From positions 1 through 56,600 of the forward strand of contig JAHBMJ010000114.1 in assembly GCA_018398765.1 (NCBI GenBank): a stretch of DNA of 56,600 nt. The letters are read 5' to 3'. The position numbers and the translations under genes are program-made. Numbering within the stretch: the first letter of the stretch is position 1; each line of letters opens with the position of its first letter. The notes under the pieces are model-generated. The model was not told where the DNA came from. It worked only from the letters and a program-made list of their open reading frames with translations, and searched no databases. This document shows, piece by piece, positions 7,363 to 55,588 of this stretch. The DNA comes from Chromera velia. Lineage: Eukaryota.

Positions 7363-8606
7363 TCACTCAGTGTACAAACTCCAATGAGATCGACCTAGGG
7401 TGGGGTCTGCCTCCACTTCCCACAGCTTATGCAAGAGGGCACCACAGGTTGTTTCCTCTATCTCCTCTTTCTTACTCTTCTTCTCCTCCTCTTTCTCTGC
7501 CTGTCTGGCAGCGAATGCGCTTTCAATTTCTGCGATCTGCTGCTTTATCAACTCCTCCTCCCTCTCCACTCTTCTGGGGCCTGGTATGCGACTTTTAACT
7601 CCTGTCTGGATCGGTCTTTCTGTTTGACGGCGATTGGGGGAATTGGCGAACTCATCTTCTTCTTCACCATCTCTATCCCGTCCCTCACTGCACTCACACC
7701 CTTCGATGTGATACATGCCTGAGGGGCGGTGCACCCACTCGTCATCAGACCTCTCTTCTGTAGCATGGACCATCTTTGGCCGCCCCTCTGGCCCCCAGAT
7801 ATCGCTGGTCTCATCGGAGTCATAACCAAACGATAGGTGTTTTGACCTTCTGCCATCTGCTCTCTCTCTCGGCTTCTGAATGATGATAATATCGTGGTCA
7901 AGACAGTCTTTTACACCATGATTTGCGTACAATGTCCTGCAGAGGAAACATCCGTGGAACTCTCTAAGGATCTCTTTCTCTTTATCGGTCAGGCGTAGCA
8001 GCTTTCGGATGTTGTGCTCTCTGCTTCTATTCATCTGCCCCAGTGCACCAATGTCCATAGGTGCTGGACCAGTGGGATCATGTGACATATGACCTCCACC
8101 AATGGTCACAGGGGTGCTTCTGTTGAGAGAAGTGTTCTAGGGTGGGTCGCTGCTGCAGCAAACGAAACGGATGGGTGGGGAACGATCGAAAGTACTTCAA
8201 ATGCTGCTCCTACTGCTGCCTCAAGGTTTGTGGGTTTCTTTTTCTTCACTTCCTTCTGAACGTCTTCGGGAAGACCCTTCTCATACTGATATACTTTATC
8301 GCCCATGTTCATATCAGAGATGAAGAGCATCTTGGAAATGAAGTTGCTCGTGTACGTCTTGAGATCTATGCCCGACACTCCCGCATACTTCATCCTGTCC
8401 AGTTCATCTCGCTGATCATCACGAGTCTGTCTGTCCTGAAAATATGTTAGCAGGACAGTCTGGAGCTCCAACCACATCGCAGGCGTATGCCCATTCTTTT
8501 TTGCGAGCTTCACAGCCATGACCGCATCGCTTTTAAGGTGGCTGTCGGCTGCACTGAGCAGCTGCGCATCAGTCATACCATGGAAGTCGCGGTACTTCTT
8601 GCACAC
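7363..8606 (-). pseudogene. gag: Frameshifted retrotransposon gag (capsid plus zinc knuckle)
   Basis: ORF 8106-8606 resembles Retrotrans_gag (LKTYTSNF...DKVYQYEKGLPEDVQKEV...PTNLEAAV). ORF 7363-8109 has PAPMDIGA and the knuckle CFLCRTLYANHGVKDC. The frame breaks at ~8108. Confidence 0.8.
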
Positions 8607-8836
8607 CCAGACTTAATCTTTGAATTCCTCAACTGTTTCAACATAATCGTAGATCGGTTTGATCGCCTTCGTAAAAGCACTGGAAGAAGTGGAATGCAAG
8701 TGGCCGAGGATCGCTCTCAGCTCAGCAATTTCTGCAGCCTGAGCTTGATACAAGGCTTTCAACTCTTCGAATTCTCTGGTGAAACCTTCCATCCTGACAG
8801 AGCAAATTTGGTCGCAACGAGGCTCCTGCTATCACG

Positions 8837-14799: not shown

Positions 14800-15355
14800 A
14801 GCCCTCAGGAGAAAGAGAAAGAAAGAGGAGGCGACAGGTCAGCGCCGGCCCCTCATGAAGAACGAAAGAAAGGAGGAGACGACAGGCCAGCGCCGGTCCC
14901 TCAGGAGAAAGAGAAAGAGAGAGGAGGTGACAGGCCAGTGCCGGCCCCTCATGAAGAACGAAGGAAAGGAGCAGACGACAGGCCAGCGAGAGGGTGATCG
15001 GAAGCGTCCGACCCCTTAGAAGAAACGAAAAGGAAGGAAAGGCAGGAAAGGCGATCGGAAGCGTCCGACCCCTTGGAAGAAACGAAAAGGAAGGAAAGGC
15101 AGGATGGGTGATCGGAAGTACCCGGCCCCTTGGAAAACACGAAAAGGAAGGAAAGGCAGGAAGGGTGAGGGAGAGGATGCTGCTCACCTCTGTCTGCTGT
15201 GACAGAACGTAAAGGAGGAAGAGGAATGTTGCTCTCCTCTGTCTGCTAAGACAGAACGGGATGGAGGGAGAGGATGTTGCTCTCCTCTGTCTCTTGCGAC
15301 AGAACTGGAAGGAGGGAGAGACTGCCGCTCTTCTCTGCCTGCTGTGACAGAACGA
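14800..15355. repeat. Tandem repeat arrays (~45-55-bp units) overlapping the 3' end of the HNH ORF
   Basis: Three unit types: gacaggccagcgccggcccctc; gatcggaagcgtccgacccctt...gaaaaggaaggaaaggcagg; and tgctctcctctgtctgct...gacagaac. Confidence 0.8.
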
Positions 15356-16814
15356 TCTGGTCGTGCGAGTCCATCAACGTCCTGGTCCCTCCATTCCCTT
15401 GGATCACGCTTCTCTTCAGTAAGTTTGCAAACTTGGTGGGATGGGAAATGATATACAGGTTTTGGAGGAGCTGTCGGATCTCTGCATTCTTTTTGAGAAA
15501 AGGGAGGAGGTCGCGTAAACTGGATGTATGCCTCAGGTCGTCCGAGTCGACTTTCAGCGGGTGCAGTAAGAAACCGAGTGTCTTCTCTATCCTTCCGCGC
15601 AATTCATCTTCAAGGTCCTTCCCAATGATCTCGAGACGGTTGTCCTGGATCCATATCCTTTTCCCTCCAGCAGTACATCGTGTGATCCGCCAGAATTCCC
15701 AGGGATCAACGTGTGTGTCTTTGTTGTGGATGGATTTCCACGTGTGGGATTGCATGGGGGTTGGAATGTACACAATGTTCGGGTGTCCGTGCGCATTGGA
15801 AAAAATACCTCCATTCAGGGTCAAGAGGTCTGTGAGTGGAAGAAATGCTAAAGGCAGCCCGTTATCTTGGTCCAAAGCATCCAGTAAGTGGTCTACTTCG
15901 AAGTTAACTGTCTCGGCGGCAGTGTAGCTCGGCATTTTGCTCCGCAGCGCGTTTATGACTGCCTCTTTCTCCGTCAGGTCGAGCTTGAACATAGAAGTAT
16001 GCCAGTCTGGCTGCTCATCTTCAGATGCCCGACGCAGCAGACGATATACGCCTCCCCTGTTGGTGAGGTAGGATAACTTCCGCTGTAGCAATGAGTCGCT
16101 TTCTTGCGACACGTACTCACGCAGCATCTCTTCTTTGGTCTGCTGCAGGTGCTCAACCGGAGACGGCGTCACCGTGGCGTCGTCCGTGATAACCGGTAAG
16201 CTGAGCTCTTCTGTCCAGCTTCCGATTGGGCCTTTCGCACTCTTGCGGGGCCGTGTTGGAATGAATTCGATTTTTTTTTCGCGGTCGGCCTGCAGCATGG
16301 CCGATTCGGAAGTTGAGTCAGACCTGGCAGTGCAGCTCTCTGCTCTCTCGTCAGTCTGTTCTTGGAATGCCGATGACACTAGGCTTCTTGGTGTCGTGTC
16401 TCCTGTTTGTTCGGTAAGGGAAGACTGTCCGAGATGAAGTGCCGCCGTCGGATCATCTAGACCTCTGTTTGCAGTGTCGTCGCTAAGAAAGGGCAATTCA
16501 TTCAGGCCCTCAACCACGTCGGCTGCTGCCGTCATGTCTTTTTCGCAAACCTCATGGCCCCTTACTTCTCGACTCAAGATTGAAGCGCCTTCAGTCTGAT
16601 GAACAGGCCGATCCGCTTCAAAAGAACAGACTGCTTGTTCCATCGTATCGTGGTGATGTCTTTCGGATCCCTTCTCTGTTTGTCCTTCAGGTAGCACTTC
16701 AGGCTGCTCCGTTGCCGCCACCGCCAAGGAAGGCCCACATCTTGGAAGACTCGAGTTGTCGTCGGCCGGCATGTCGTGATCGTCTTCCCTGCTGGACGGC
16801 AACAGGTCTGGCAT
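15246..16814 (-). CDS. HNH-like endonuclease domain protein (C-terminal part of a disrupted longer gene)
   Basis: 522-aa ORF with a disordered N-half, then NFEVDHLLDALD...HPNIVYIPTPMQSHTWKS (DH...N...H..K pattern). The same frame continues upstream to ~17290 through two stops. Confidence 0.55.
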   Translation of the reverse strand: MPDLLPSSREDDHDMPADDNSSLPRCGPSLAVAATEQPEVLPEGQTEKGSERHHHDTMEQAVCSFEADRPVHQTEGASILSREVRGHEVCEKDMTAAADVVEGLNELPFLSDDTANRGLDDPTAALHLGQSSLTEQTGDTTPRSLVSSAFQEQTDERAESCTARSDSTSESAMLQADREKKIEFIPTRPRKSAKGPIGSWTEELSLPVITDDATVTPSPVEHLQQTKEEMLREYVSQESDSLLQRKLSYLTNRGGVYRLLRRASEDEQPDWHTSMFKLDLTEKEAVINALRSKMPSYTAAETVNFEVDHLLDALDQDNGLPLAFLPLTDLLTLNGGIFSNAHGHPNIVYIPTPMQSHTWKSIHNKDTHVDPWEFWRITRCTAGGKRIWIQDNRLEIIGKDLEDELRGRIEKTLGFLLHPLKVDSDDLRHTSSLRDLLPFLKKNAEIRQLLQNLYIISHPTKFANLLKRSVIQGNGGTRTLMDSHDQIVLSQQAEKSGSLSLLPVLSQETEESNILSLHPVLS

Positions 16815-17294
16815 CGCTTCGTTCTCCTCTCTTTCTGTGCTGAAAGAAATTCCTCGCGAAACGTCAGCGGCTCGAGACGACGTCTACAGAAAGACATTCG
16901 AGTCGTGATCGGTGTCCGTCTGAATTTCTGCGTCTTTTGTGGATGGTTTTTCGGTTTACGTTCCTGCCTCCCTGGTAAGAGAGACAGTCGGTGGCAGAGT
17001 GAGATTAAAAAGGTCGTTGGTATCCGTTCCTCTATCGGCTGTTGTCGGTCTCCTATCCCCATTTTGAGGCGGCGTCGTCGTCTGGCAGCTTTCTGTTTTC
17101 TTCCCACCATGAACTGCATTACTAAAGGTGACTACCGAAATGGCTTCAGTGTCGTTCTCTGGTGGCACTGCATCTACGTGGAAAAGGCTCCAAGGGTCGC
17201 CTATCGTTCCTGGAGAAAACGACCGTAACTGTCTCGCACGTGGGCTCGGGAGGAGAAATCCTGGGCGCCACAGGAGCTGGAGCTTGTTCTCTAG

Positions 17295-33870: not shown

Positions 33871-36800
33871 TCAGTGACCCCAGCCATCCAGGCACTCACG
33901 GAGGGACTCCCGCATAGCTTCCGCCTTGTGAGACGCGCTCTCACCCTCCCCCACGGGACCCGTTCCCTCCATTCCAATTCCTCCGACAACGCCGTCCCCC
34001 CCCCCCACAATGTCATCAGCAGCAGTGCCACCAGCAGCAAAACGATCAACTGCTGCGGTGACACTTGAGCGGTTCTCACCGCCCATCACAGGCTCCATCT
34101 GCCTCCCCCCGAGGCCTGATAGAACCCCCGGGCCCCCACTCACGTCGTTTAACAAGCTGGTCCCAAACGGTCCCCCCTTCCCGCCAACGCTAACGGGGAG
34201 GAACCGGGACCTCGACTGTCGCCCGGTGGGGGGGGATGCGAGGGGATCTGCCTCGTCATCCTCATCAAAGAACGAGAACGAACGCTGGCGGAGACCCAAC
34301 AGTCGAGATGACCCCCCATACTCCCTATCCTCGTCCTCGTCTGCCTCTGTCGTTGCCCCTCTGAGGAGCTTTTGGTTGTGGGATGACAGAACCTGGTCAT
34401 CCACCCACCAACCCCGGGGGGGACCCCCTCCCGCCCCTGTGGCGTCGTCATTTGACGTGTCGCCAAGGGCGTAGTCAGAGCAACTGCCGCAGTTCTGTGA
34501 GACGGATGACACTTCTTTTTCGTTGTCATTTCCCAACGTATCATTATCACCGTCCCCATCTCCAGCATTCACCCTCCCCCCCCCACTATGAGCACAGAGA
34601 AACGTGGGGGCAGATCGTCCTGCTGAATCTCCAGACAAGGAGAGCCGACGATCTACCCCCCCAGAAGACGACGCATGGAGATCAATCGACGCTGTTCTTT
34701 TGTCACTAACGCCGTCACGATCACAATCCATGTACCCCTCGGACTCGCGATCGAGGAGGAACTCTGCGGAGGAAGAACCAGCTTGCTGGCCTGCTGCTTG
34801 TTGGTCTAATTTCACACCACCCGTCTGCATCTGCATCAACGCAGCGCGAGGACTCTGAGGGCGTCTGTGACGCGAATCTTCCCCAGAGCCCCCACCCGAA
34901 CCCCCACCCGCTCTGCCTTCGGATGAAGAAATGCAGCGAGTGCCGGTGCCACGGCTGCTGTTGTGGTGTTTGTGATGGTGGTGGGTGGATCTCTGATGGA
35001 AGTTCGCAGAAGAGCCTGAGAGCGTATCTCGGTCTCCTGAACCACCCGAACCCTCTTGGGATCCCCCACCCCCCGAACCACCTCCCACTGTGACCCGGTC
35101 TCCCCCACTCTGTCTCTCTGCATCTCTATCGCCCCCGTCCTGCTCCACCCCACCTCTTCCTCTTGCATTATGAGAGGACGCTATGTCCCCCACATACACA
35201 GTGTCGCTGTCACCCCCCAACTGTGCCGTCGCCTGCGCGGCAGACTGCGCTTCACTGCCACTCGCAGCGACTTGCTGCATGTGTTGGCTGTAGCTGAATG
35301 ATCTGGAGGACATTGGGGGACCGACAAGACAGGCTGCTGAGTCGCTCCCGCCGTGGGGACGGGGAAGAGTTTGTTGATGCATTAAGCTGCTGCTGCTGTC
35401 CGCTTGGCCTCTCACCCGTTCCCCTCTCCCTCTCCACCTTTCCATTCCTTCAAATGGTTCGAGACCCGAAGGGCGACTCGGCAGACTGCTGTGCTCATGC
35501 TGAAGACCTCCGGAAGAAGGACAGCGGGCAACAGACGAAGAGTGCGCTTGCCCTCCGTGAAAGTGGGGGGACGGGAAACTAGAAGTCGGGGGACCGGGAG
35601 GCCCAAGTTGTGAGGAAGAAACTCTTCCTCCTCCTCCTCCTCCTCCTCCTGCATGCTCCCGATCATCACCCCCATGAGGATGATGATGCATCTGCTGCTG
35701 CTGCTGGAGAGGCAGGTAGTGCTGTTGGGGATAGTGCTGCTGAGACGACTGCTGCTGCTGCTGCTGCTGCTGCAGATGGTCAGTTGCTGCCCTCTGGGAC
35801 TGAGGGTGATCGCGGTGACTGGAAGAATGGAGACCGGCACCACCATGGCCACCCGTCTGAGCCCACGAGGCCCCCCCAGAGGATGACCCTACACCCGCCC
35901 CACCGTCTGCAGAGAACTTCCCGGGCGCATTTGCAGCATTTCCCTGACTCGACCTCTGGCCGTGTCCTCCTGCCATTGCCATGACGTGAGGAGCCCCGCC
36001 AGGAGGCGGCGGCTGCTGCTGTCTGGGTTGGTGAGACTGCGCGTAGACTGCACCCGTTCCCCCCTGCCTTTCCGTGTCCATCTGCTGCAACTGCTGCGGC
36101 TGGGGCTTCGGGGGCGGCGGCGGCGGCGGCGGCTGAGAGTGGTGGTGCCCTCGAGACTTTTCCGCTCCCCCGTCCTCCTGCTGCATTTGCTGCTGCTGCC
36201 ATGTCTGCTGTTCCCTGCCTGCCTGCTGCTGCTGAGCTGACTGGCCATACTGAACAGAAGACGTCCCCCCGGGCTGCTGATGCTGAGAGGGGGGCACATA
36301 CGGGGACGCGGCTACCGGGGGACCCGGTGGAGGGCCCGCAGGAGGAGGAGGAATGTGAGTGAAATGCTGATTGGGGTCGTGTGGAAATCCCGAGGCAGCG
36401 AGGTGGACTCTGACCGGAAAATTCGAGGAGTAGCTCTGGTGGGTTGGGGGGGGGAGGGAGTGGAGCCGGGGGGATGAAGAAGACACGTCGGGCGAGGTCA
36501 CGTGCTGGTGCTGGTTTTGAAGATGCGGCGGGGCGTGCAATGATGAATGGGGAACCGACGAATGTGCAGCTTGGAGGGAGGGGTGGGTGTGGTGGCGAGG
36601 CTCTTGACGCTGCTCAGACTGTTGGTGCTCCTGCCGCGAATGCGGTGGAAGGCACACCTGCTGCTGCTGCTGCTGCTGCACGGGGAAGCGCTGTGGTCCC
36701 CCGGAGGTCTGCGGAAGCGTTTGCGGAGACTCCAGAGAGGAGTGGGGCGCCGAACGGTCTGCCTGCCAGTGCTGCACTCCACTCACGTGAGAGTGACTGT

Positions 36801-39800
36801 GGGAATGCACATGAACATGCACTGGGCACCCGTGCTGGACGGCCTGGCCCGCGGCCGCTTGTTGCAGCTGGTGATGCTGGTCGGGTCCTTGGAGGGGAAG
36901 GGGAAGGGAAGGTCCAGGGGCAGCACCGGAAGGGGGGGACAGGGGGGGAAGAAACGAGGATGGCTCTGACTGCTGCTGCGCGGATTGGTGAGGAGGGGGG
37001 CAGTGATGCGGAGCAGGTGGCGGCTGTGAAACCTGCCCTGGCTGGCTGTGCGCTGCCACTGACGAAGACCATCCACCACCTTGAGCGTGATGCTGCTGAT
37101 GCATCTGTTGCTGCTGGTGTCTGACAAGAAGCTCTCCTCCTGTGTGCGGACGCTGGTGGCTCGGCACCGACTGCTTCGCTGCAACTTCGTCTCCCACAAG
37201 CGACCCCTCTGTGGTTCTCTGATATGCACCCATATGGGTCTCGACTCCCTCTGGCGGCAGTGGCACATGCTGCGCTTGGGAAGGGTGGGGGTGCATTGGA
37301 TGAGAAGATGGCAATAGGGGCGGAGGGGGGTGTACAAGCTGCGGCTGTTGCTGCTGACGGGGGGCTGGTTGGGTGCCATCGTGGTGCATCGGCGGCCCTC
37401 GCGACACTGCCTGCAGTCCCGTCGCGTGGGACGTCGTGGGAGAAACCCCGCTGCCTCCACGACTGACGGGAGGAATGGCATGATGATCGCCTCCTCCTCT
37501 ATGACCCTGCCCCCCCCCCTCGGAGTGCTCATTCGAGTGATGAGAAGCCCCGAGGCTCTCTGGGGTGGGAGATGGAGAGGAGTGGTGTTGAATCTGGAGA
37601 TCCCGCAATTCTGGAGGAAGGGATTCTGCAGCCACAGCAATCAGGCCAGAAGCAGTGCAGGCAGCGCACTGACAAGCCCTGCGAAAGAGAATCGTGCCCC
37701 CAGCGGCGGAACCCGAGAAGACAAGGGAAGCAGAAGCAGGCCGTGGATGCTGCCCACCTCCACTCTCCCTTTCTCTCTCCTTTTCCATGTCTCGAGCCTG
37801 CCTCTCCCTCTCCAATCTGTCCCGATGCTCCATAGCAGCCAGTCGGGCTTGTCCGGCCTCGACGGTGACCGTCTCCGTTGCCTCGGCGGCAGAGATGATG
37901 GGTGTCTGTCCGGCTACGTTGACCACAGAGACCGACACAACGCTTCCCACCTTGCAAGCGCGTTCTCTCTCCTTCTCAGCCGCAGCCAAGGCGGCCGAAT
38001 CGGGATCAAACTGAACAACAGCTGACGCGGCCGCGCTGCCACCCGGCGAGCCTGTTGCGGAGTACGCAATGGAAGCCGCTGAGCTCTGGCGGTCTTTCCA
38101 AGCGTCCCCCCCTCCTCCAGGATGACAGCGACCGCAGTCGCACGAGCAGATGGTTGCAGTGGCAGGCTTGGCTGCCTGCTGGACGGGCGCGTGCGAGTGC
38201 ACCCGCCTTCCCCTCGCCCCATGAGAGATGGACGCTGACGCTGGGTGTGGCTGTAAGTGAGGAGAATGGTGGGTGTGTGAAGGGCAGATTGACGACGGCC
38301 GGTGCACCTCGGTTGCGTTTGACTGTTGACCCTCGAGCGGGAGCGGTTGAGGGACCGCCGGCACCTGCACCCATGAATGCAGATGGAAGACATAAATAAA
38401 GTGAATACTCGAGCTCTTCGTTGGAGAATCATATCTTCAGACACGCAGACAGGCAAACCAACATGCCTTTAAGAGAGAGATTTCATTTTTCTTTCTTTTC
38501 CCTACTCAGACAAACAGACAAACAGCACTCACGCCGCACTCAGATTCGTGCCGATGCAGGAGGAAAGAGGAAAGTCAAGAAGACAGAGGGACACATGCTT
38601 TTAAAGACGCGCCGCTTTGTTCCAAATGCACCAAAATGCACTCCATTATTCGCAGAGTTTGAACCACGAAAGCAGCAAAGGCGCTCAGAAAAAAAAAATG
38701 CACACAGGACCGAGACAGAAACGATGTTGTAGACAACCTCTCTTTCTCACTTCTGGCAAGAAACCACCGACACACGCATCCACACGCAGATACATGCAGA
38801 AAGAAACGTGCAGAAGCGATCAGAAGGCACACGTCATGCACCCATGCATCACAACTTACCTGCTGCTGAGGTTGCGCCAACGGAATCCCTGAGAGAGAGC
38901 CAGAGGAATCCTGATGAGAGCGCCAGAGAGTTGCCACACGCCCCTCTGCCCCGACGCCCCCGCTGACAGGATTTCCTTCGTGAGCAAGAGGGGGGCTCAC
39001 ATGGGTGTTGGGATCAATCAGCTGCAAATGGTGGACATGGTGAGTGACACTGAGACCCCGACTTTTCGAGGATGGAGTGCCACTGCCGAGGGGGGCGGGA
39101 CGCTCCTCAGTGCAGATACCGTGATGGCCTGGGTACGAAGGCCCCGCAGGTTCATTACCAACGAACACGCGAAGGGGGAGGAGCTGGCGACCGGGGGGGT
39201 GCGGAGGGGGTGGAGGGGCTTGGTCGAGAACGACAGCATGTTGCGGCGCCACCGTGAGCATTTGCGACTGCTTCACTGCGGGGCCGTGATGGATGTGCCC
39301 CTGCTGTCCCATGTCGCTTGAGTGGAACGGACAGGTACAAGATCCGTGGTGCTGTTGCTGCTGCATCTGACGGTCAACGGCCTCTCCATGGTAGTGGGCT
39401 GTCGGTGGATTTCTTTCAAGAAGCAACGGTTGAGCGCTCGGCTGATCCGGTAAAGGACCCCCAGGCTCGTTGCCTGCAAGAGAAGAAACCTTCGGATGCT
39501 GGTGCAGGGGGTGCACAACAGCAGTTGTTTGGGGAGGGGTTGGAACTGAGCGCGAAACCAGTCCCTGAACTTCCCCCCCGTGCTGCGCCACCTCAATCCC
39601 ACTAGGAATGGCAGCTGTGCCTCCAGTCTGGGCTCTGCACGCCTTGCAAGTACACACACCTGCTTGTCCTTCAGGCTGCTTCTGCTGCTGCGGCTGTGGT
39701 GGCGGCGGCTGCGTCTGAGGCGGCATCGCTGACATGGCTGTCGTAGGGTCTGAGGGCAATGCTGTGGAGACTTGCGGGGTCTGATGAAGCAACGGAGGGG

Positions 39801-40994
39801 GGTGCCCTCGTTGGACCTGATACTGGTGGCTTGAGAGGGTGACAAGGTCCACCGGCACGTGCACGGCACCCTGCATGGTGAGCTGGCTGTGCCCATGCCC
39901 TGGAAGCTCCCCGGCAGCCATCAGCTGCATCCGCGTTCGGTCCGTCCCGATTCCGGGATCGTCCGACGCTTCTGACGCCGACATTACAGCCATGGGAAGG
40001 GGAAGCCGGCCCCCAGGGAGAGAAAGCGGGGAGCCTTTCGGGGGCTGTCTGTGCCCTGCTGCTGTGTCTGACAGTCCTTCAAGGCTGCAATTCCCATTTC
40101 CACTCCCACTGCCGCTCTGCGCAGACGACAACAAGAAGTCTCCTCCGAGTCTACCCCTCCCGGAAGAGTCAGCTGTCGTGTTCGTGCCGTGCCCATTTCC
40201 ACTCCCACTTCCACCACTCCCAGTTCCACTACCGGCTGCTACAGACACCCCTCTGTCAAGCCCTTTGTTCTTCCTTCGGTTCCCCGCTCTGCTGCCCCTC
40301 GGCTTCTGCGTGGCTGCCCGGATCTCATCTTCGCCTGCAAGGAAGGTAGGCGGCGTTTGTACAGAGTTGGAAATGAATCAAGAGAAGGCAGATGGAGCGA
40401 GCTCCAGAGAAAGGGCCAAAGAAACAGGAAAGGAGAGAGCTCACGAGCAAGAAGAAGAAGGGAAATTGGACTCACTGTGTGCATCTCGACATTGCGTTCC
40501 CTTGATGCAGGTCCCTCGGAGGTACTTGATGCACATGACTGCAGGCCAGGAAGGAAGAAAACGATCAAACGCAAATGAGCACAAACACGAACACAGGAAA
40601 TAGACAAGGAGTTCTTCGATAAAGCATGAAAAGAGAACGAAGGAAAAGCAAAGAGAAAAAGGAGGCGATACCCAACCCTCTTCACTCACCTGCCTTGTAG
40701 CGCCCCGGCGACTCACGCAGGTCCTGCATAGCATGAAGCAGAGCACAAGGGCCGCGCGAATCTCATCAACGATAGAAGGCAGAGGGGCAATCGCTTTGCG
40801 CTGACAGAAAAGAAACAGAAACCGACCTCATTTCCATGAGCAAAGGAGCACTTCTCTCCGAGGAGACATCGATTTTCCATCCAGTGCCGGCATACTTTTG
40901 TTTTGTGCCGTGCATTGACACCTGGATCTGCAGAGCCTGTGGGGATGCGAAACTTCAAGGCAAGCTCGTCTTGAAGGGGTATGGTGGATGACAT
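33871..40994 (-). CDS. Tandem CCCH zinc-finger (RNA-binding) protein with a very long Q/H/P/G/S-rich disordered region, ~2,077 aa
   Basis: Five in-phase GT-AG exons: 40994-40827, 40723-40690, 40538-40476, 40334-38860, 38364-33871. Fingers KTKVCRHWMENRCLLGEKCSFAH and YKAVMCIKYLRGTCIKGTQCRDAH are both C-x7-C-x5-C-x3-H. Confidence 0.85.
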
Positions 40995-41777
40995 TGGTCT
41001 CTTCTTCGTAGTCTTTTTGGAACTTTGACTTCACGACATTGGTCTCCATGTACAAGCAGTGCTTAAAACGCACGCTTGCATCACGCATGGGTCATAAAGA
41101 AAAGATGCAGCTCTTAAAACCTTTGAAATCGTAAAATTATTGTAGACTGCTGTCTGACAGACAAGAGGAGGAGCAGGAACACTCTCTGAGTCTCTCTCTC
41201 CAAGGTGCTGGACCAGGGGCACTGAGGCAGAAATTGTTGAGACGAAATTAAACGGAGTTTGGCCGGGGCCTCTGAACAAATGGGCCCGCCGTGTATTTTG
41301 CCTTTCAGTTTGCAAAATGCCGCGGACCGCGACTTCGTGCGAACACACAGTTTCGCAGTGAAAATTCGGGTCCAGCAAAAAAAAAAGTGCCCCACAAACC
41401 TTATTTTTTGCTCCGCCGCGCCCACCACAGAATTTAATTGTTGTGCTGCCGGGTCCCCATCCGAGCCTTATAATTGACGCACGCAAAGGTATTGCCTTAG
41501 ACATCCTTAGACATTCCTTACAGACATCATGACGGATCCTCCACAAAATTTAACTTGGGGCAGGATCCGTGACATTCCGTGACTGCACCCTCGCTCTCCT
41601 GCAAGAGTTTGCTGTTTCCACAGTGTGTCGTAAATAGAATAGATTCTGCAAGGAGAGTTGGAACCGTTAGTCGACATTCTGCAAATTGTTGTCCTTGCTG
41701 TTGGCAGGAAGGCTTTTTGAGTGTTCTTGTGAGTCCGTCTCTATTCGTCTCCGTGTAGCTTCCCAGGCTGGGCCACA
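40995..41777. promoter_or_regulatory. Probable bidirectional promoter region
   Basis: About 780 bp between divergent start codons (CCCH gene on minus, UBA/PUB gene on plus). Inferred from geometry only. Confidence 0.4.
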
Positions 41778-43008
41778 ATGACAAGCGCAGACCTTCCGAT
41801 CGATCCAGCTCTCCTGTCAGAGCTAGAGGAAGAGCACAAAGTCTCCAATGTCCGCGCTCTTCGGGCCCTCTTCGCAACTCAGAATGCGGGGGTAGAAGAG
41901 GCGTTGGCATGGATCGAGGAGCACAAGAATGACCCTGATATTGATGTGCCAGTGAAAATCACAAAGAGCGGAGAAATGAAGGAAGTTCCACAAGGAAAGT
42001 ACGTGACCGATTCGGAAAGAACAGAAAACCCCGAGCTTCTCAAAAGTCAGATTGACCAGGAGCTCCTGGGTCAGTTGAAGGAAATGGGGTTTGCTGAAAT
42101 CAGGGCTGAGAAGGCTCTGTACATGACCTTAGGATCCAACCTGGAGGCTGCCATGGAGTGGATCCAGCAGCACCAGGACGACATGGATCTCGACACGCCC
42201 TTGCACGAAGACTGTGTGCTTCCTCCAAAGCCGAAAATTTCCAAGGAAGAAGCCCAGGCCCGGGCGTATGAGTTGCAGGAAAAACTTCGGAAACAGCGGG
42301 TGGAGCGAGAGAAGAAAGAGGCGCTTGAGAAGGAGAAGAACAGAATTGCGATGACGAAGGCGATGCAGGAGCAGCAGAGACAGTTGGAAGAGGCAGAGAG
42401 AGGGAGGGCTATAGAACAGAGGAAAAGAGAGAAGGAGGAACACGAGAAAGAAAAGCTCCGACAGAGAGAACTGATGAAACGAGAGTGGGAGGAGAGGTTT
42501 AGCCGTCCGTATCCCGAAAATGAAGAAGAGCTCGCCTCGGCAGAGGCCAAGCCGAAATCTGGAAAAGAGATGATCATTCAGGCCATCAACAAATTGAAAA
42601 AGCTCTACAAGACGGACAACCCAGCAGGCTTGAAAACCTGCGTATCGACTCTGAAGGTCTGTCTGTCGTTTCCGCTTGTGACTCCCTTTGCCCCCCCCCT
42701 CCCCGGAAACGAATTTCGATGCAAAGAATGGCAGAGACCGGGCCCCTCTCTCCATGTCCCCCCTCTGTCTGAGTCATGTGTGTGTTCTATTTTCTACTTT
42801 TCCAGATGCTGTATTGTCAAAGAGTCCACCCAAATTGGCTGTGTCTGTCTCCCTGCCTCTTCTTCCCGCTTTCCTGTCCTTTTCCTTCTTCCCCCCCTCT
42901 GCGTACCTCTCTGTGGGGCTACGGGTCAGGGGGTGCCCGTGGTTCTAGCGTCTCTTTGTCTGTGTGTCTTCTCGGGTTGCTTTCTCTCTTTTTTTGTCTC
43001 TGTCTGTC

Positions 43009-44582: not shown

Positions 44583-46160
44583 TAGAGGGATGCGGGGAGG
44601 ATGGGGGGGAGGGGGGCGGGACTAAGGGCAAGCACATACGGTGCAAAAATGTAGCATGCAGTCCCAATGGGCCAATGCACTGAATGCAGGAGCAGCTTCC
44701 GCAAAGCAGTAACACATGCAGTTAAGATAAGTTCTAGGATAAGTTACTACTGAATCAATCTCCAAGAATCTCTCCAAGGTTAAAAGATCGTAAAGCTTTG
44801 TCCTAGGTAGTCCTAGGCCATGTATTTTAAACGTGATGATTGAGGCACTGACATGTCAAAACTAGTTTCAGAATTTATTGGTTCTAACTGGTCTGGCTCT
44901 GATTGACACGTAGAAAGCGCTTTAATTGTAGAACGAAGAACTCGAACAAAGTTTTTGTTTAAGACCTTAAGCAGTGTCTAGAGATGAGTATCATTTTAAA
45001 ACGGATTTTGCTCACAAATGCAAAAACTTTAAGTGTTTTATATAAGAAGCCTGGAACATACACAGGGCTCATCATATACACAGTTAACGTCAGAACAAAA
45101 GGTTTCTCGATCTAGACATATGTCACTGCCACTCACTGACATCATTCCATCGTTCAATCAATTGGTAACTGCGCTGTCAGTAGCTGTCAGACTGATTTCA
45201 CTGCAGTTCAGATGCGACACCTGATTTCAGTTGCTACATCGCTATGGCTAGTGTTAGTGAGACGTGCACTTATTTCTAACGTAGTCCCAGAAAGCATGCA
45301 AAGTGGCAAACCTAATGGCAATTTAAAACTTTAATCCAAACTTTCGTATACAATCTGCACTTATCTGTACTTACGTCATAAAACCAAGTTTTTATCTAAA
45401 CTAGTCTAAACACTGCTCAAAAATAGTAAAAAATAGAAATAATATTTGTAAAATGTGTCTTTCTGAATTGAAATGGATTTTTTGTTCCAACAGTGCCCAG
45501 AACTAGGCCCAGAAATGTAGAAAACGCTTTGTGAAATGAAGTTTTTGTCTATGCCAGTCTATGCACTGCCCAGATATGCAGAAAACGCTTTGTGGAACAA
45601 AGTTTTTGTCTATGCACTGCCCAGATATAATTCGTATTTTCGTCAATCTTTTTTTCGTTTTTGAGTGGGAATCCTAGTTGCTCTACATATAGGCACCACG
45701 CGTGGGCTCCTATAGAACTGCCATAAAAATCCCTTATATAATTCCTGCGAGATGCATGAGGCATGCATGCAATTGCATGCATGCTCTCTCCATGCATGCA
45801 CATACATAGCTATATATATTAATATATATAGCTAGGTCGATCGGCTTCAAACTCTCTCCAACACACTTGATCTGCGCACCTCGGTCGGTCTTTTCATTTC
45901 AAGGTCTTCGGCGCACTTGGAACACGGACTTGAGAAAGGGTTTTTGGAGTCGATCGACTGGCAGTGGCAACTTTCGCGGTCTACCCAGCTGCTGAACTTA
46001 CCCACACTTCTAAAAGGCATTTGAATCGCGGGCAGGGCCATTAAATCAAAAGCGACGTGAACGCCTGACACGTGTATTTTGTTGCACCCTTATCAGTCGC
46101 TCTTTGTCCTTGAGTGACAGTCTTCCAATCTATAACTGCTTGAAGACAGACAGCTAGACA

Positions 46161-47404
46161 ATGGCGGGGATTCCGGATGGCACTTTGGCGATCGTGTTTC
46201 TTTGCATCTCCATCTTTCAGTTTTTTTCGGGCATCTATACCTGTTCCATGTGTCTGCCCACTTTATTGGCACACAAAGGATCCTGAGACTCCGGTGAGGT
46301 GGCAGGCAAAGTCGCAGTCGACCCACTGCCTTATATATGTATATATAATTGTCCTCAACCTTGCTCCAGTCAGTGGTATGCACGTATTCGTGGACGTATG
46401 TATATATACACATACATAAATACATGCAGTTGGGAAAAAGGATACAACAACCGTTTTGTCGGTGGAGCACGCACTCTTCCTCTCAACCGTTTTGTCGGTG
46501 GGTCGGTTGTCGCATGTTCGTGTTTTTCTGCCAACATGTTTACGTGTTCTTTCTTTGTCTCAATGAATTCAATTCGCAAAGAGCCGCGTGTAGAAAGAAC
46601 AATAGGCTCTGCATAGCTAGATGTTCTTGTTCAGCTTTTGATCTTTCTTTTGAGACTCTCGCTGGCATTTGCTTTCGTTTGCTTTTCTTTTTTTCCTCTT
46701 TCTGCATGCAGGCGCGATCGTGTCGATAGTCTCGTGCGTGGAGTATTCGATCAGATCTTGTCAGAAGTTCGACAAAGCCGCTGGAAGGGACCCGGGACTG
46801 GATGTCGCAGAGTCAGTTTGTTTGTCTGTCTGTCTGTCTGTTTGTTTGTTTGTTTGTTTGTTTGTTTGTTTGATTGATTGTTTGTTTGTTTTTGTGCAAT
46901 CGTCAAAGTGCATGGCGGAACAGTATGTGTGGGAATCAGTGACCCCAAGTAGGCCTGCAGCTGGAAGAAGAAAGGCGTGCATGCATGTATAGTCTCGATC
47001 ATGCAGACAGTCAGCCAGTCAATCAGTGAGTCAGACCGTAAAAGAATCGTATGGCGAATTGAATGCAGTGCCATCACCCGTATAGCTGCATGCATGGGTC
47101 CTGGTGTCCTGCGGGTGTTGGACCAGTCTATTCCTTCTTTTTGCTGGTAGAAACTTGAGTTCTGTTTAGATACCTCCATGATCGTCGGATAATTTGGTCC
47201 CCCCCCCACCCCCTCTCTCTCTCGTGTTGCTTTTCGTCCAGTTTTGGAGGGACGTTTTCTTTCATTCATTCATTCATTCTTTCTTTCTTTCTTTCTTTCT
47301 GTCTTTCTGTCTTTCTTTCTTTCTGTCTGTCTTTCTTTCTTTCTTTCTTTCTTTCTGTCTTTCTGTCTTTCTGTCTTTCTTTCTTTCTTTCTTTCTTTTT
47401 TTTT

Positions 47405-47436
<32 letters not shown>

Positions 47437-49755
47437 TTTTGTGTGTGTGTATGAACAGGGTGCTCAGTGCCTGCTTACCTGACTGCCTGCCTGCCTGCCT
47501 GCCTGTCTGATGGATGCTATGCATGCAGGTACATGTACTGGGGGTATCTAATTGGATGCCCTCTGATCATTTGGGATTTTGCCGAAACGCTAGGGATGGA
47601 GGGGATTCCGTTCTATTCTGCAGCCACCTTCTTCTGCCTCCTCGTGGGATTCTGGTGGGTCAGCATTGTTGTTCTTTCTGCATGCTTTTGATAGCCGCCT
47701 TTCAGTTCACGTATACATTTATGCACGTGTGCAGGAGCGTGCTCTGTGCATCCAGAATCAATTAAACTACTTGTAGTATCCTCATAAACGACTGTAGAGA
47801 AGAGGGATGCTCAACCTGTGATCGCAGGAGAGCAGGAGAGAGGCGGTCGGGGTGCGGAGGGAGGAGGAGGCAGGGAGGAAAGAATATGAGAGAACGGGAG
47901 GGAGGGAGGGAGGAAATGCGTGATTGAATGAGCCCATGACGATGACAGGAATGAGGGAAAGTGCAAGAGCCAGAAGGCGTAGACAGATAGGATGGATGGA
48001 TGGATGGACGAATGTGTGAACCAATCAATTCATGAAGCCACTGATTGACGCACGCAAATCTAATTTGATTTGCAGGACAGAGCACATCCGAAACTCCGCA
48101 CAGTGGTTCCTCTTTAGCGTTGGCTGCGTGCTGGTGAGTTCCCTTCCCTTTGTCGTGTGGTATTTCGTGCGTGGTTTATTGTGCGTCATGAGCTGCATCT
48201 TTTTGACAAAACGACTGCCCAAGTCGGCCCTGCACCTTAATTTCTGTTGAGAGCTGGTTGTTTGGAGATGAGAGATTTTTGGAAAGAAGCGACGGTAGTT
48301 GTACTTCTGAAAAGTGCAGCAACACTGATGGTGATTTCAACATAAAACGACATTCATTTTTTCGAACTTCAACATCAACAGCTGCAAAGACCTAGAACGG
48401 TTGCATGACCTTTGGTTCTCTCGTTCGTTTCTCCTCGTTTTTCCTTTTCTTTTTTTCGTGAGGGAGGGACGCGTGAGGGACCAGAGGGAGAGAGAAATTC
48501 GCAGACTATGATCATCCACAGCAAAGGATATAGCCTCAGGTAGAAAGCGGCAGGCAGCAGTTTTAAATCTGAAGGTCTTGTGAAGGAAGGGGAATTTGCA
48601 TCAATCACTGTGGATCGTCATCCATCCAGTCGTCTTTCTTTTTGGTATTCAAATTTTACTGCGCATCCCAGCTGCATCCCATCATTGTGACCTGATGCTA
48701 ATCGTGCGCATGTCTTTATGGATGGATGGATGGATGGAGGGATGGATGGATGGATGGATGGATAGATGGATGGATGGATGGATGGATGGATGCAGGTAGC
48801 GGTGATGGCGATGAACGTCACGAAGAGGGCACTGCACATTCTGCAGACACTCCAGGACCTGACCTACAAAGTATCGAAGCCTGCTGCCAAGTAGGCATGA
48901 TGCAGTTAGCTGTTTTGTTTGACAGACCTCCCCAGCAACCACTTGGTCTGTCTTTTCTTTGTTGATTCGATCCGCATCTGCTCTCCTTGTTTGCTCTCCT
49001 CTTGTCAGGCTTCTTAGAGTCTCTTCCCTCTCCTCACAATTTTGTCGCTTTTTCCCAAATGCGTTTAATTCTCCCGTCCTCCTGTTCTTTTCTGGAGTTT
49101 CTTCTCGATCTGTGTCCTCTGTTCCTCCTCCCAGAGCCTTCATGCAGACCGCGCTCAAGAATTAATCGGTCACTCTGTACTCCTCCAGGAAAATACATGC
49201 TGCACTCTGAGCAAACGTTTCTTTCAGCTTCGTGCCGTTGGCATTCGATCGATCGTGCACGTCTCCTCTCTCTCTCTCTCCCTGCTCCCCTGTCTTTCTG
49301 CCTGCAGATGGCTGATCATTTCCCTTGCCACTTTTGGACTCGGGTGGACAGTGTTTCCCATCGCCTGGCTTCTCCGAGACGACATCCATTCTGTAGGAAC
49401 TGTGGATATGTCCTACATCTCCGTGCTGCACGGAGTCGGTGACGTGGTCTCGAAACCTCTGTTTGCGATGTTCCTCACCAGATACAGGTGGGTCACTCGG
49501 TAGCACTTCATTCAGTTTTGTTCAAAGACCTTTTTGCCTTCTATTTTCTCTTTATGAGTCAGTGAAATGAGCAGGCAAGGTCGCACACAGACTAGCGCTG
49601 CTGCTTGCGTTTTCATGATTGGCTGTCTGCCTCTCCTCCTCCTCTGTCTATTTGTCAGTCTGTCTCTTTGTCTGCCTGTCTACCTGTCTGCCTGCCTATC
49701 TTAATGTATGTCTTCGTGTGCGCATTCGTGTGTCTATTCGTATGCGCATTCATCG

Positions 49756-49794
<39 letters not shown>

Positions 49795-50451
49795 TGTGCG
49801 TGTGTGCGTCTGTGTCTGTGTCTGTGTCCGTCTGTCTGTGCGTGTGCGTGTGTGCGTGCGTGTGAGCCTGTGTCTATGTGTGTGCAGGCAATCCACTGAA
49901 GACCTCCACTTGATGTCGATCTTACGTGCCCTCAACTGGTTGAGCGACTTCCGAGGGAAACAGGACGGGTTTGAGTTCAAACGCGTGCCTGAGGAGGTGG
50001 TCAGTTCTTTGCCTCCTCGGTGCTTCCTTCCTGTTTTTTTTGTTCTGGCGTTGGATCTTTTTTGTATTTCCGTCCGCCTTTCGATGTTTCTTTTTTCGAA
50101 CGCGAAGAAGAGGTGGACAGAGACAAGAAGTGGGGAAGAGGAATTGACGAGTTGAGAGAACGGTAGAAAGGATTGAAGAACAAGAGCGCACACTATGTAA
50201 TAATTTCGAATTCGGAGAAGAAAGATGGATTGATGGACTGGCGCGTCGTGGCTCTCTTGGCACTTCAAATGGGTGGAGCTGGACCACTTATCAAAAGTTC
50301 CTTGCTTTTGATTTGCTTTGTGTTTGCTTTGCAGGTCATAGTGACCGTCCCAGCCCTTCTTGAGTCGTGCATGAACACCAAGAAGCCCGCAGAGGTCAAG
50401 AAAGCACTTGACGTCGTGCGACGGCGTTCGATGTCGGGGGCTCCCCGGTGA
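46161..50451 (+). CDS. Microbial (type-1) rhodopsin, channelrhodopsin-like, with a C-terminal cytoplasmic extension (9 exons)
   Basis: In-phase GT-AG exons: 46161-46251 (or -46293, which contains a TGA), 46430-46501, 46712-46811, 47529-47654, 48076-48133, 48796-48890, 49308-49487, 49888-49999, 50335-50451. These give seven hydrophobic helices, including helix [17 protein letters not shown], helix F WTVFPIAW and helix [14 protein letters not shown] (retinal Lys codon at 49453-49455). Confidence 0.85.
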
Positions 50452-51026
50452 TTGGCGTCAAATGCGGCCATTGCGGTGAATCAGCTAGCTGCAGAGGCCC
50501 ACGGACAAGGAATGATGGCAAGCGACATCGAGGGTCAAGCAACCAAGGGCAGGGTCCAAAAGACATCAGAACACCTCACGCCACCACCTCAACACATGGC
50601 CCCTCAAGCAGGACACTTCTGGCCACCCCACGCAAATCACTATTTAGCCCCCTTTCCGATGTACGCTGCTCTCCGTATTCGTATCCACCTCCACCTCCTA
50701 TGTATCCCTACCCCTATCCCTATCCTGCCCCCGCAGTAGCAGCAGACCAACTAGTGGGTTTCGCTTCCCCCCTTGGACCGAGCGTCGTTCCCTCATGTGT
50801 TCCCTCCGCATGCAAATCGCCCAAGCCCTCCCCCAAAGCCTCCCCTGGTGGCTACAGCTAGAGCATCTTTTGATAAACGCATCGTTGTGCCCCCAGGCCT
50901 GCTGCCAGCTCCGAGTCTCCACTGCCAGAAAAGAGGAGGCTGGATGAGGGGGAGCTTGAAAAAGTTCTCAACGTCATCGAAGGACTTGAGAACACCCAGG
51001 GACAGGAGGGAAATTTGGAAGCATAA

Positions 51027-54211: not shown

Positions 54212-55588
54212 TCATTTGTTTGAGGAGGACGCATGCTCAGCGTCATCAGAACCCCCGACTGCCTCACTCGCACTCTTCCCCTCAAACTTGACAATTTCCT
54301 TCCACACCTGCCTCGCAAGCTTACGTCCACCCTCCACTGAGGGCTCCACCCGTGCTTCATAGTCCCCCGTATTCTTTCCATCCAAAACTTCGAAGAACGG
54401 CACCGGAACGATCCTCGTCCCCTCCACCTCTACCTGCTCTACACCCAGACGGTAAACTGCACGGATTAGGCTCTGCACCTTTTCTGGATGGCTGTTGTAC
54501 GACAGTTGGTTCAGTGCGGTGTCTGCCCAGGAAACTTTTCCTGGAGGGGGACTCTCGTCAGGAAAATAGATCATACAGACGAAAATCGCCTTAGGTTTCT
54601 TTTTCTCAACCAGTTTCGTCAAATAAGCGGCAAGCTGGTATCGGAACATTTTGATCAGGTGCGCCAATCCTATCGGCCACCCCCACCCACCCCACCCAGA
54701 GTTGAATGGACTCCAGAAGCTGCTCTGATTCTCTATGATGTACGTGGTGGATGTGAGATACATCAGGAGCGCAATATTCCACATTGTGCCTACTGAGGGA
54801 CGGAGAGCAATGTCATTGCCTCCCACTGAGACAACAAGATAATCCCCCTCTGCAATACGATCCCGAACAAACTGATCGTGGTACAACAAACCCCCTTCTT
54901 TCAGCCCGCATCTTGCGGGACTTTTGGCGGGATTCTCGTCCCTGTCTGACAGGGTGCTCTCCTCGACTGCGGCATTGCAACACCAGAACGGTAACTTCAA
55001 GCGACCCGAATTGGAACTGCAGCGGAGGAAATCAAAGCCGGGAGATTCTTCCCCGGGGTCAAAAATGCTCTCTGGGTTCACGGCAAAGAAATTCATCCAA
55101 AAGGCGAAATCCTTCACCATTCGGGGCGGTCTCAAGATCGACTCGAACCCATTCAACGCAGGACCTGATCTGCTGTCACTCTTCAGCTGTTGATGATCAT
55201 CTGGCGCCCTTCTTGTGTCGAGCAACCAGTGTTTGTTGTCAAGGGAGGAGTCCCCCACGAGGAAGATACACCGTCGGGCGTCTTCCACTTTTTTCTCCGA
55301 CTGTTGTTGCATCGAGTCGTGCAACATTTCGAGGAACTCCACCTCATGTCCGTGGTAGTTCCCATAAAATTCAGAAGCAGGAATGAAGTCGGGATCAGAA
55401 GACTGTGCCATCACGTGAAGAAATTTGCTCAACCGAAAAAAACCAGAGCGCAAGGGCGGAGGAGAAGAGGCCCCTTTCCCAAAACAGACAGATGAGAGAA
55501 CACAACCGACTAGAAACAAGAGTCTCAAGATCGTACGAGCAATAGAGCGATCTTCAATGGCCGAGAACTCTGGGACTACATTCACCAT
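54212..55588 (-). CDS. SGNH/GDSL-like hydrolase family protein
   Basis: Intronless 458-aa ORF (the true start may be the internal MAQSSDP). Block I IFLVGDSSLDN, block III VSVGGND, block V-like DYEARVEPSVEGGRKLA. Confidence 0.8.
   Translation of the reverse strand: MVNVVPEFSAIEDRSIARTILRLLFLVGCVLSSVCFGKGASSPPPLRSGFFRLSKFLHVMAQSSDPDFIPASEFYGNYHGHEVEFLEMLHDSMQQQSEKKVEDARRCIFLVGDSSLDNKHWLLDTRRAPDDHQQLKSDSRSGPALNGFESILRPPRMVKDFAFWMNFFAVNPESIFDPGEESPGFDFLRCSSNSGRLKLPFWCCNAAVEESTLSDRDENPAKSPARCGLKEGGLLYHDQFVRDRIAEGDYLVVSVGGNDIALRPSVGTMWNIALLMYLTSTTYIIENQSSFWSPFNSGWGGWGWPIGLAHLIKMFRYQLAAYLTKLVEKKKPKAIFVCMIYFPDESPPPGKVSWADTALNQLSYNSHPEKVQSLIRAVYRLGVEQVEVEGTRIVPVPFFEVLDGKNTGDYEARVEPSVEGGRKLARQVWKEIVKFEGKSASEAVGGSDDAEHASSSNK

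What the first reader, a model, noticed from the sequence alone, without database searches (positions are those of the whole stretch)
46161..50451. Hidden 9-exon microbial rhodopsin with an unusual channel-like helix C (G-G-D motif, no R82/D85)
Seen: the exons splice in phase into a ~316-aa 7-TM protein with DVVSK in helix G and WxxFPxxW in helix F. Anchoring on BR Pro91, helix C reads M82-Y-W-G85-Y86-L-I-G89-C90-P91...D96. The canonical counterion D85 and R82 are lost, T89 is Gly, W86 is Tyr, and the xCP motif is present. Helix B has a Glu next to the Y57-equivalent (SCVEY), and helix G has His four residues before D212. Established: xCP with D96, Tyr at W86 and HxxxD are features of BR-like cation/kalium channelrhodopsins and related algal lineages, and proton pumps need D85. 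Inference: this is not a pump but may be a light-gated channel or sensor with altered counterion, colour and ion selectivity. It may be an uncharacterised family member relevant to optogenetics.
Basis: partly seen in the sequence, partly recalled or inferred. Interest (0 to 1): 0.9.

Follow-up and report, generated by a model that had tools for sequence, protein, structure and literature searches.

The report
Broken copy of Chromera light channel
This is a real, spliced gene of an already published group of algal light-gated cation channels, but its reading frame breaks near the start in both genome and RNA, so this copy likely makes no working protein.

Summary
The gene is real: nine exons, all eight introns supported by RNA contigs, with the helix C, F and G motifs as described. 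Two claims fail. (1) The exons do not splice in phase. A 2-nt excess near 46237 shifts the frame to a stop at 46284 (41 aa), and both informative RNA runs carry it. A second stop at 50449 cuts a tail that has since decayed. (2) The family is not new. Read through the break, the protein is 81% and 76% identical to Chromera velia Cvel_21397 and Cvel_30056. These are two of three rhodopsins whose missing D85 and Gly89 were published in 2022; the third, ChvCCR1 (Cvel_28437), is a Na+-permeable light-gated cation channel (PMC9765531). Best reading: a recently disabled, still transcribed paralog of that group. Whether this locus is Cvel_28437 itself could not be tested. One lead remains: a helix-B Glu in 7 of 7 G-G-D proteins sits at the HcKCR1 Met80 position, beside the lost Asp, and may replace it.

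The parts
45930..46293 (+). Exon 1: 5' UTR from about 45930, ATG at 46161, helix A
   Evidence: RNA contigs X1 record 1, X2 records 4 and 5; homology to paralogs
46233..46240 (+). Site of the 2-nt excess (+2 frameshift) at the end of helix A, in a TATA run; position approximate
   Evidence: Frameshift-aware alignment to 3 of 3 paralogs tested; RNA contigs match the genome with 0 gaps
46284..46286 (+). Premature TGA, codon 42 of the ATG frame, 7 nt before the first splice junction
46430..46497 (+). Exon 2 (68 nt, A-B loop). Included in run X1, skipped in run X2. An 18-nt direct repeat starts at 46448 and again at 46484, the second copy running into the donor
46712..46811 (+). Exon 3: helix B with E77-Y78 (HcKCR M80-Y81 positions) and R81
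47529..47654 (+). Exon 4: helix C (M102, G105, Y106, G109, C110, P111, D116) and helix D
48076..48133 (+). Exon 5: start of helix E
48796..48890 (+). Exon 6: helix E and E-F loop, with a 2-aa in-frame insertion relative to paralogs
49308..49487 (+). Exon 7: helices F and G with H234, D238 (D212) and Schiff-base K242
   Evidence: Pfam PF01036 31.6 bits
49888..49999 (+). Exon 8: conserved cytoplasmic segment after helix G
50335..50951 (+). Exon 9: coding to TGA 50449-50451, then a transcribed, decayed remnant of the paralogs' C-terminal tail (homology reaches about 50996)
   Evidence: X1 record 3; tail alignment to Cvel_21397 shows the stop, one frameshift and three more stops

Best explanation
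This is a transcribed, spliced paralog of the Chromera velia G-G-D cation channelrhodopsins whose frame is broken in exon 1, so it likely yields only a 41-aa peptide and is likely a recently formed pseudogene. SHOWN: the exon structure, transcription, the frameshift and both stops in DNA and RNA, and the sister relationship to Cvel_21397. INFERRED, order of events: duplication from the Cvel_21397 ancestor; then a stop at 50449 removed the low-complexity tail, which decayed, while the 7-helix part stayed under constraint; then the +2 event in exon 1 abolished the protein. INFERRED, how the intact family works: retinal on K242 with D238 as main counterion, held by Y78 and Y106 as in HcKCR1 (D229, Y81, Y106). 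Light would open a passive cation pore gated by the D96 homolog. The pore would not be K+-selective because the aromatic filter residues W102 and Y222 are Met and Ser or Ala, which matches the published behaviour of ChvCCR1. The helix-B Glu would supply the carboxylate lost at D85. The organism is inferred to be Chromera from the relatives alone.
For: Frameshift located by 3 of 3 paralogs tested. 989 nt is not in frame and gives a 41-aa product. RNA contigs of both informative runs carry the lesions without gaps. All 9 frame-restoring donors in exon 1 score 0.2 bits or less, against 5.8-11.7 for the used donors (leave-one-out 1.3-10.6). There is no canonical slippery heptamer, no structure 3' of the U run (z -0.7 to +0.3) and no SECIS match in Rfam. 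The tail past 50449 has a frameshift and three more stops against Cvel_21397. Branch length is 0.18 against 0.098 for the sister. Relative-rate counts are 30 vs 12 (p 0.0055) and 24 vs 11 in residues 1-255 (p 0.028). Channel function of the group: PMC9765531; ChvCCR1 reversal potential averages +8 mV in Na+ bath and -72 mV in NMDG, n=7 each. The fold of Cvel_21397 matches HcKCR1 at Z 26.6, rmsd 2.3 A over 235 residues.
Against: Conserved residues have not eroded: only 1 of 67 sites invariant in the six intact G-G-D proteins differs. All splice sites work, and the other two indels in the 7-helix part keep the frame. With the distant outgroup Cvel_9532 the rate test shows no difference (10 vs 9). 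The RNA evidence is assembled contigs of depth 3-8 from two runs of one study, which drop rare isoforms; only 4 of the 8 listed runs were laid. Skipping exon 2 (run X2) restores the downstream frame, so a single UGA is the only barrier in that isoform. No protein or ribosome data were available.
Confidence: 0.75

Rival explanations
1. Not exclusive of the best explanation: this locus is Cvel_28437, the source of the published channel ChvCCR1, through a gene model that bypasses the break (for example a short invented intron in exon 1).
For: Seven Cvel-numbered members of the group were returned by the protein searches, but neither Cvel_28437 nor any product of this locus (names). The paper calls Cvel_28437 closely related to Cvel_30056, and this gene sits in that three-member clade (100/100). 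A neighbouring protein of the window is held letter for letter in the Atlas, so genes were called on this sequence. Cvel_21397 residues 1-260 align to HcKCR1 19-256, so its loops are longer and a bypass removing 12 residues might still fold (inference).
Against: In the tree the sister is Cvel_21397, not Cvel_30056. ChvCCR1 gave the best currents of the three, which is less expected of a bypass model. The searches are incomplete: one search missed 3 of the 9 members of its own query alignment. The paper's alignment figure is not held as text.
Confidence: 0.4
2. The gene is live through recoding or a minor splice form: UGA readthrough in the exon-2-skipped mRNA (about 306 aa), a -1 slip at the G_UUU_UUU run at 46220, or a mini-intron, giving a tail-less channel at low level.
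For: Exon-2 skipping is seen in run X2 and puts exons 3-9 back in the ATG frame. The -1 frame is open from 46136. Invariant residues are intact.
Against: The stop context is UGA-GAC, not a known leaky one (recalled rule). No SECIS match, no stimulatory structure, the heptamer matches only 3 of 4 positions, and rescue donors score poorly. The indel maps exactly where homology switches frame, as a mutation would. The readthrough product would lose the start of helix B.
Confidence: 0.12
3. Translation restarts at the Met of helix C and gives a 227-aa fragment holding helices C-G only.
For: This is the longest ATG-started ORF in the nine-exon mRNA.
Against: It lacks helices A and B, which line the pore in these channels, and it lies behind upstream ATGs.
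Confidence: 0.05
4. The frameshift is an assembly error and the gene is intact.
For: The site is a short TA repeat near a run of seven T.
Against: Contigs assembled from two RNA runs match the genome with 0 gaps across the site and across the second stop.
Confidence: 0.03
5. One reading: an intact member of an undescribed rhodopsin family, perhaps a sensor.
For: The G-G-D motif is confined to the Chromera-type clade here: 7 of 10 rows in it, 0 of 17 outside. Cvel_21397, the closest relative, gave no current in HEK cells.
Against: The motif and the channel activity of the group were published in 2022, the lack of current from Cvel_21397 came with very poor expression, and this copy has no intact frame.
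Confidence: 0.05

Closest known systems
Chromera velia Cvel_21397 (UniRef A0A0G4GDI8) and Cvel_30056 (A0A0G4HPS7)
   Same: 81% (261 of 322) and 76% (245 of 323) identical to the read-through; same M-G-Y-G-C-D helix C, helix-B Glu, H/D/K in helix G and post-helix-G segment. Cvel_30056 gave small photocurrents; Cvel_21397 expressed poorly and gave none.
   Different: They are intact at 478 and 499 aa with a Pro/Tyr-rich tail; this copy has a frameshift, an early stop and a decayed tail.
ChvCCR1 (Cvel_28437), Govorunova et al. 2022, PMC9765531
   Same: Described with a non-carboxylate at D85 and Gly at T89; passive, inward-rectifying, Na+-permeable photocurrent.
   Different: Its sequence could not be obtained, so it may be a paralog or a model of this very locus.
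Kalium channelrhodopsins HcKCR1/2, HcCCR and B1ChR2 (PDB 8gi8, 8h87, 8gi9, 8jxo)
   Same: Top sequence and fold matches for Cvel_21397 (E 3e-12 to 8jxo; Z 25-27); Y81, Y106, C110, D116, H225, D229 and the Schiff-base Lys are kept.
   Different: About 20% identity; D105 and T109 are Gly, W102 is Met, Y222 is Ser, M80 is Glu.
Cryptophyte BCCRs (ChRmine, GtCCR2, GtCCR4)
   Same: Pump-like fold, xCP, D96 homolog and Tyr at W86.
   Different: They keep the DTD motif; this group has G-G-D.

Membership tests
Type-1 microbial rhodopsin (PF01036) | Profile match above the curated cut-off | tested here: met
   Exon 7 alone scores 31.6 bits against a cut-off of 24.6; 6 of 9 family proteins pass
Type-1 microbial rhodopsin (PF01036) | Schiff-base Lys in helix G (DxxxK) | tested here: met
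   D238, K242
Type-1 microbial rhodopsin (PF01036) | Seven-helix fold | tested here: met
   Tested on the intact paralog Cvel_21397, not on the window's own product: Z 26.6 to HcKCR1
Type-1 microbial rhodopsin (PF01036) | Intact reading frame able to encode the seven helices | tested here: not met
   Stop at codon 42 in both observed isoforms
C. velia ChvCCR1 group | Non-carboxylate at D85 and Gly at T89 | tested here: met
   G105, G109; features named in PMC9765531
C. velia ChvCCR1 group | Clusters with Cvel_21397 and Cvel_30056 | tested here: met
   Three-row clade 100/100, sister to Cvel_21397 100/97
C. velia ChvCCR1 group | Light-gated passive cation current | not testable with these tools
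   Published for ChvCCR1; small currents for Cvel_30056
BCCR/KCR in the strict sense | DTD motif in helix C | tested here: not met
   G-G-D; DTD named as shared by KCRs and BCCRs in PMC10865875
BCCR/KCR in the strict sense | Tyr(TM2)-Asp(TM7)-Tyr(TM3) counterion network residues, xCP, D96 homolog | tested here: met
   Y78, D238, Y106, C110-P111, D116 at sequence level; network described in PMC10359266
K+-selective channelrhodopsins | Trp102 and Tyr222 homologs both present | tested here: not met
   Met102 and Ser231; criterion from PMC9765531
Outward proton pumps (BR/PR type) | Carboxylate proton acceptor at D85 | tested here: not met
   Gly; the requirement is recalled knowledge
Bestrhodopsin or enzyme rhodopsin | Fused bestrophin or enzyme domain | tested here: not met
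   No such Pfam hit in 9 of 9 family proteins scanned; the gene ends in exon 9

The most novel reading that the evidence does not exclude
The locus is translated through its lesion (UGA readthrough of the exon-2-skipped mRNA, or a -1 slip) into a tail-less light-gated cation channel, in a family where the D85 counterion has moved from helix C to a Glu on helix B. The probability given is for the whole claim; the counterion swap alone, in the intact paralogs, I put at about 0.45.
Probability: 0.07. Interest if true: 0.65.

Novelty: new member of a known kind. Interest (0 to 1): 0.2.

Why it matters
As it stands it matters little: a broken extra copy of a channel group described in 2022. Two side points have value. 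First, if this locus is Cvel_28437, the published ChvCCR1 construct would rest on a gene model that the RNA here does not support, and its helix A and loop should be checked. Second, the family keeps a helix-B Glu at the position that lies next to the D85-equivalent in the HcKCR1 structure. If it replaces that carboxylate, it would explain how these channels work although neutralising D105 abolishes HcKCR1 and HcCCR currents, and it would give a handle for colour and gating. Four further G-G-D proteins outside the 2022 study (Cvel_9532, Cvel_14508, Cvel_23720, P0005) are better candidates for expression than this gene.

Tried and rejected
TGA read as Trp in this organism: rejected, because every conserved Trp in the gene translates as W under the standard code, and the stop follows from the frameshift. 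Selenocysteine: no SECIS family among the 3 weak Rfam matches, all far below their gathering scores; a divergent SECIS is not excluded. Frameshift signal: no canonical heptamer and no structure. Alternative donors and mini-introns: 9 donor options and 10 mini-intron options restore a long frame, and none is seen in RNA; the donor matrix rests on only 8 sites and acceptors were not scored. My first 8-exon model omitted exon 2 and suggested a lone in-frame UGA; the paralogs showed it to be the skipped isoform. Environmental alleles: the metagenome scan with Cvel_21397 confirmed 0 of 104 pattern matches. No whole genome is held, so other copies, ploidy and synteny were not checked. Sequence of Cvel_28437: not found, nor in supplement searches (one search covered 12 of 18 files). 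The conserved post-helix-G segment gave no usable Atlas hit. Three look-ups of earlier scan findings returned nothing. Haploidy of C. velia is recalled; no title or abstract opening listed addressed it. The structure tool returned no coordinates, so the Glu-to-Schiff-base distance was not measured.
Full report
1. Observation. The region holds a spliced type-1 rhodopsin gene on the + strand. Exons are 46161-46293 (transcript from about 45930), 46430-46497, 46712-46811, 47529-47654, 48076-48133, 48796-48890, 49308-49487, 49888-49999 and 50335 onward. Of 8 runs listed, 4 were laid. X1 and X2, from one study, hold spliced contigs that support 8 of 8 introns; X5 and X6 matched only repeats. X1 includes exon 2 and X2 skips it. 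Exon 7 passes the Pfam Bac_rhodopsin cut-off by itself.

2. The frame is broken. The nine exons give 989 nt from ATG to the last TGA and translate to 41 residues. Against Cvel_21397, Cvel_30056 and Cvel_9532, homology runs in the ATG frame up to the end of helix A and continues in the -1 frame, with one +2 event at about 46237 in 3 of 3 alignments. Two RNA contigs cross the site with no gap or mismatch, and two cross the second stop at 50449, so neither is a genome assembly error nor corrected in the majority RNA. Past 50449 the paralogs run on for about 150 residues or more. Here the remnant is still recognisable but, aligned to Cvel_21397, has one frameshift and three more stops; the alignment to Cvel_30056 is noisier there. 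Two splice guesses give exactly 316, a GC donor at 46256 and a 38-nt mini-intron. Both donors score far below the used ones (-9.0 and 0.2 bits), and both are read through by the contigs.

3. What it is related to. Searches returned seven C. velia CCMP2878 proteins (Cvel_21397, 30056, 9532, 14508, 23720, 27701, 5163) and two unnamed relatives. With X at the break, the 328-aa read-through is 81% identical to Cvel_21397 and 76% to Cvel_30056. In a 27-row tree (P0023, a 97-aa fragment, left out; rows cut to 360 residues; midpoint root) it is sister to Cvel_21397 (100/97) inside a 10-row clade (100/100), apart from 17 relatives that all keep D85. That tree has no named KCR. The link to KCRs and BCCRs comes from PDB sequence hits and from an AlphaFold model of Cvel_21397 (mean pLDDT 63.6, mostly 81-95 in the helices), whose best matches are HcKCR1, HcCCR and B1ChR2 at Z 25-27, ahead of other rhodopsins at 23.6 or less, with GtCCR2 at 24.9. 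The organism is inferred from these relatives; no genome was available.

4. What is already in print. Govorunova et al. 2022 (bioRxiv 10.1101/2022.09.26.509509, passages and section 8 read; PMC9765531, passages, Discussion and one data file read; its alignment and spectra figures are not held as text) tested Cvel_28437, Cvel_21397 and Cvel_30056. They note the non-carboxylate at D85 and call Gly at T89 'a very unusual feature'. Cvel_28437 (ChvCCR1) gave passive, Na+-permeable currents, Cvel_30056 smaller currents, and Cvel_21397 none, with very poor expression. So the motif and the channel reading are known. Searches for 'ChvCCR1', 'Cvel28437', Chromera+rhodopsin+KCR and Chromera velia+rhodopsin showed no further functional study of this group in the held library. 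Passages of PMC10147648, PMC8818676, PMC10865886 and PMC9601134 concern other chromerid rhodopsins or mention Chromera in passing. PMC12448745 and 10.1101/2025.09.16.675330 gave no matching passage. Cvel_28437 itself was not returned by any of the four protein searches, nor was any product of this locus, so I cannot exclude that they are the same gene (about 0.4).

5. How it most likely works. For this copy: translation from 46161 ends at codon 42, 7 nt before the first junction and upstream of all the others, a layout that usually triggers nonsense-mediated decay (recalled; not tested). The damage looks recent. Only 1 of 67 family-invariant sites differs, and identity to Cvel_21397 is 62-90% in every exon. 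The branch is faster at variable sites (30 vs 12 with Cvel_30056 as outgroup, p 0.0055; 10 vs 9 with Cvel_9532). The tail has several lesions and the 7-helix part one, which suggests the tail was lost first (inference). For the intact family: K242 binds retinal; Y78, Y106 and D238 match the Y81-D229-Y106 gate of HcKCR1, and D116 matches the D96 homolog needed for opening (PMC10359266 passages; PMC10865875 passages, which number the TM2 Tyr against BR differently). W102 and Y222 of the K+ filter are Met and Ser or Ala, predicting no K+ selectivity, as measured for ChvCCR1.

6. The lead worth keeping. In HcKCR1, Asp105 lies close to Met80 and Thr109 and salt-bridges to Lys84, and neutralising it abolishes current. 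In this family 105 and 109 are Gly, 80 is Glu and 84 is Arg or Lys. Glu stands there in 7 of 7 G-G-D proteins and in 0 of 17 relatives that keep D85; of the other three clade rows one has Asp, one Gly and one a gap. This is one clade, so one event, and the helix-B alignment rests on a weak sequence match. The main text of PMC9765531 has no 'Met80' and no passage on this Glu among those shown. A counterion swap is a prediction (about 0.45), testable on intact paralogs.

7. Rivals. Recoding or minor splicing (0.12): exon-2 skipping restores the downstream frame and leaves one UGA, but no readthrough, SECIS or frameshift signal was found. A five-helix fragment (0.05), assembly error (0.03) and an intact new family (0.05) are unlikely.

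8. Verdict. Real gene, correct class, known group, broken copy. Novelty: new member of a known kind, or already known if it is Cvel_28437. Interest 0.2.

Noticed in passing
P0007 (Cvel_27701), P0009 (Cvel_5163), P0008: Two C. velia members of the clade lack the Schiff-base Lys in the alignment, and P0008 keeps the Lys but lacks D85, D96 and D212; possible retinal-free or sensor offshoots.
   Followed up: partly
window 49888-50440 (exons 8-9); Cvel_21397 residues 250-310: A cytoplasmic segment after helix G is conserved in all 9 family proteins (invariant E252, H255, I259, W265, P282, V285, T289, P291, A292, L294, A309), including those without the Lys. No usable Atlas hit.
   Followed up: partly
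window 46448-46465 and 46484-46501: An 18-nt direct repeat in exon 2 copies the donor site into mid-exon (cryptic GT at 46462, 3.1 bits) and coincides with the changed loop residues; it may relate to the exon skipping seen in run X2.
   Followed up: partly
window 54212-55588 (-): Single 458-aa ORF with no Pfam hit; Atlas look-alikes are eukaryotic SGNH/GDSL-type hydrolases (score 0.96-0.97, TM 0.63-0.70).
   Followed up: partly
window 41775-42650 (+): Gene with UBA domains (Pfam UBA_7, E 7.5e-30), likely continuing into a PUB-type domain after an intron (recalled resemblance).
   Followed up: no
window 7363-8612 (-): Two overlapping ORFs resembling a Ty3/gypsy gag remnant (Ty3_capsid E 0.0085, below cut-off).
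   Followed up: no
window 33871-38436 and 38575-40377 (-): Very long low-complexity Q/P/H/G/S-rich open frames (1521 and 600 aa stop to stop) in a GC-rich block, probably exons of one large gene.
   Followed up: no
window 15246-16883 (-): 545-aa open frame with no Pfam hit at E 0.01.
   Followed up: no
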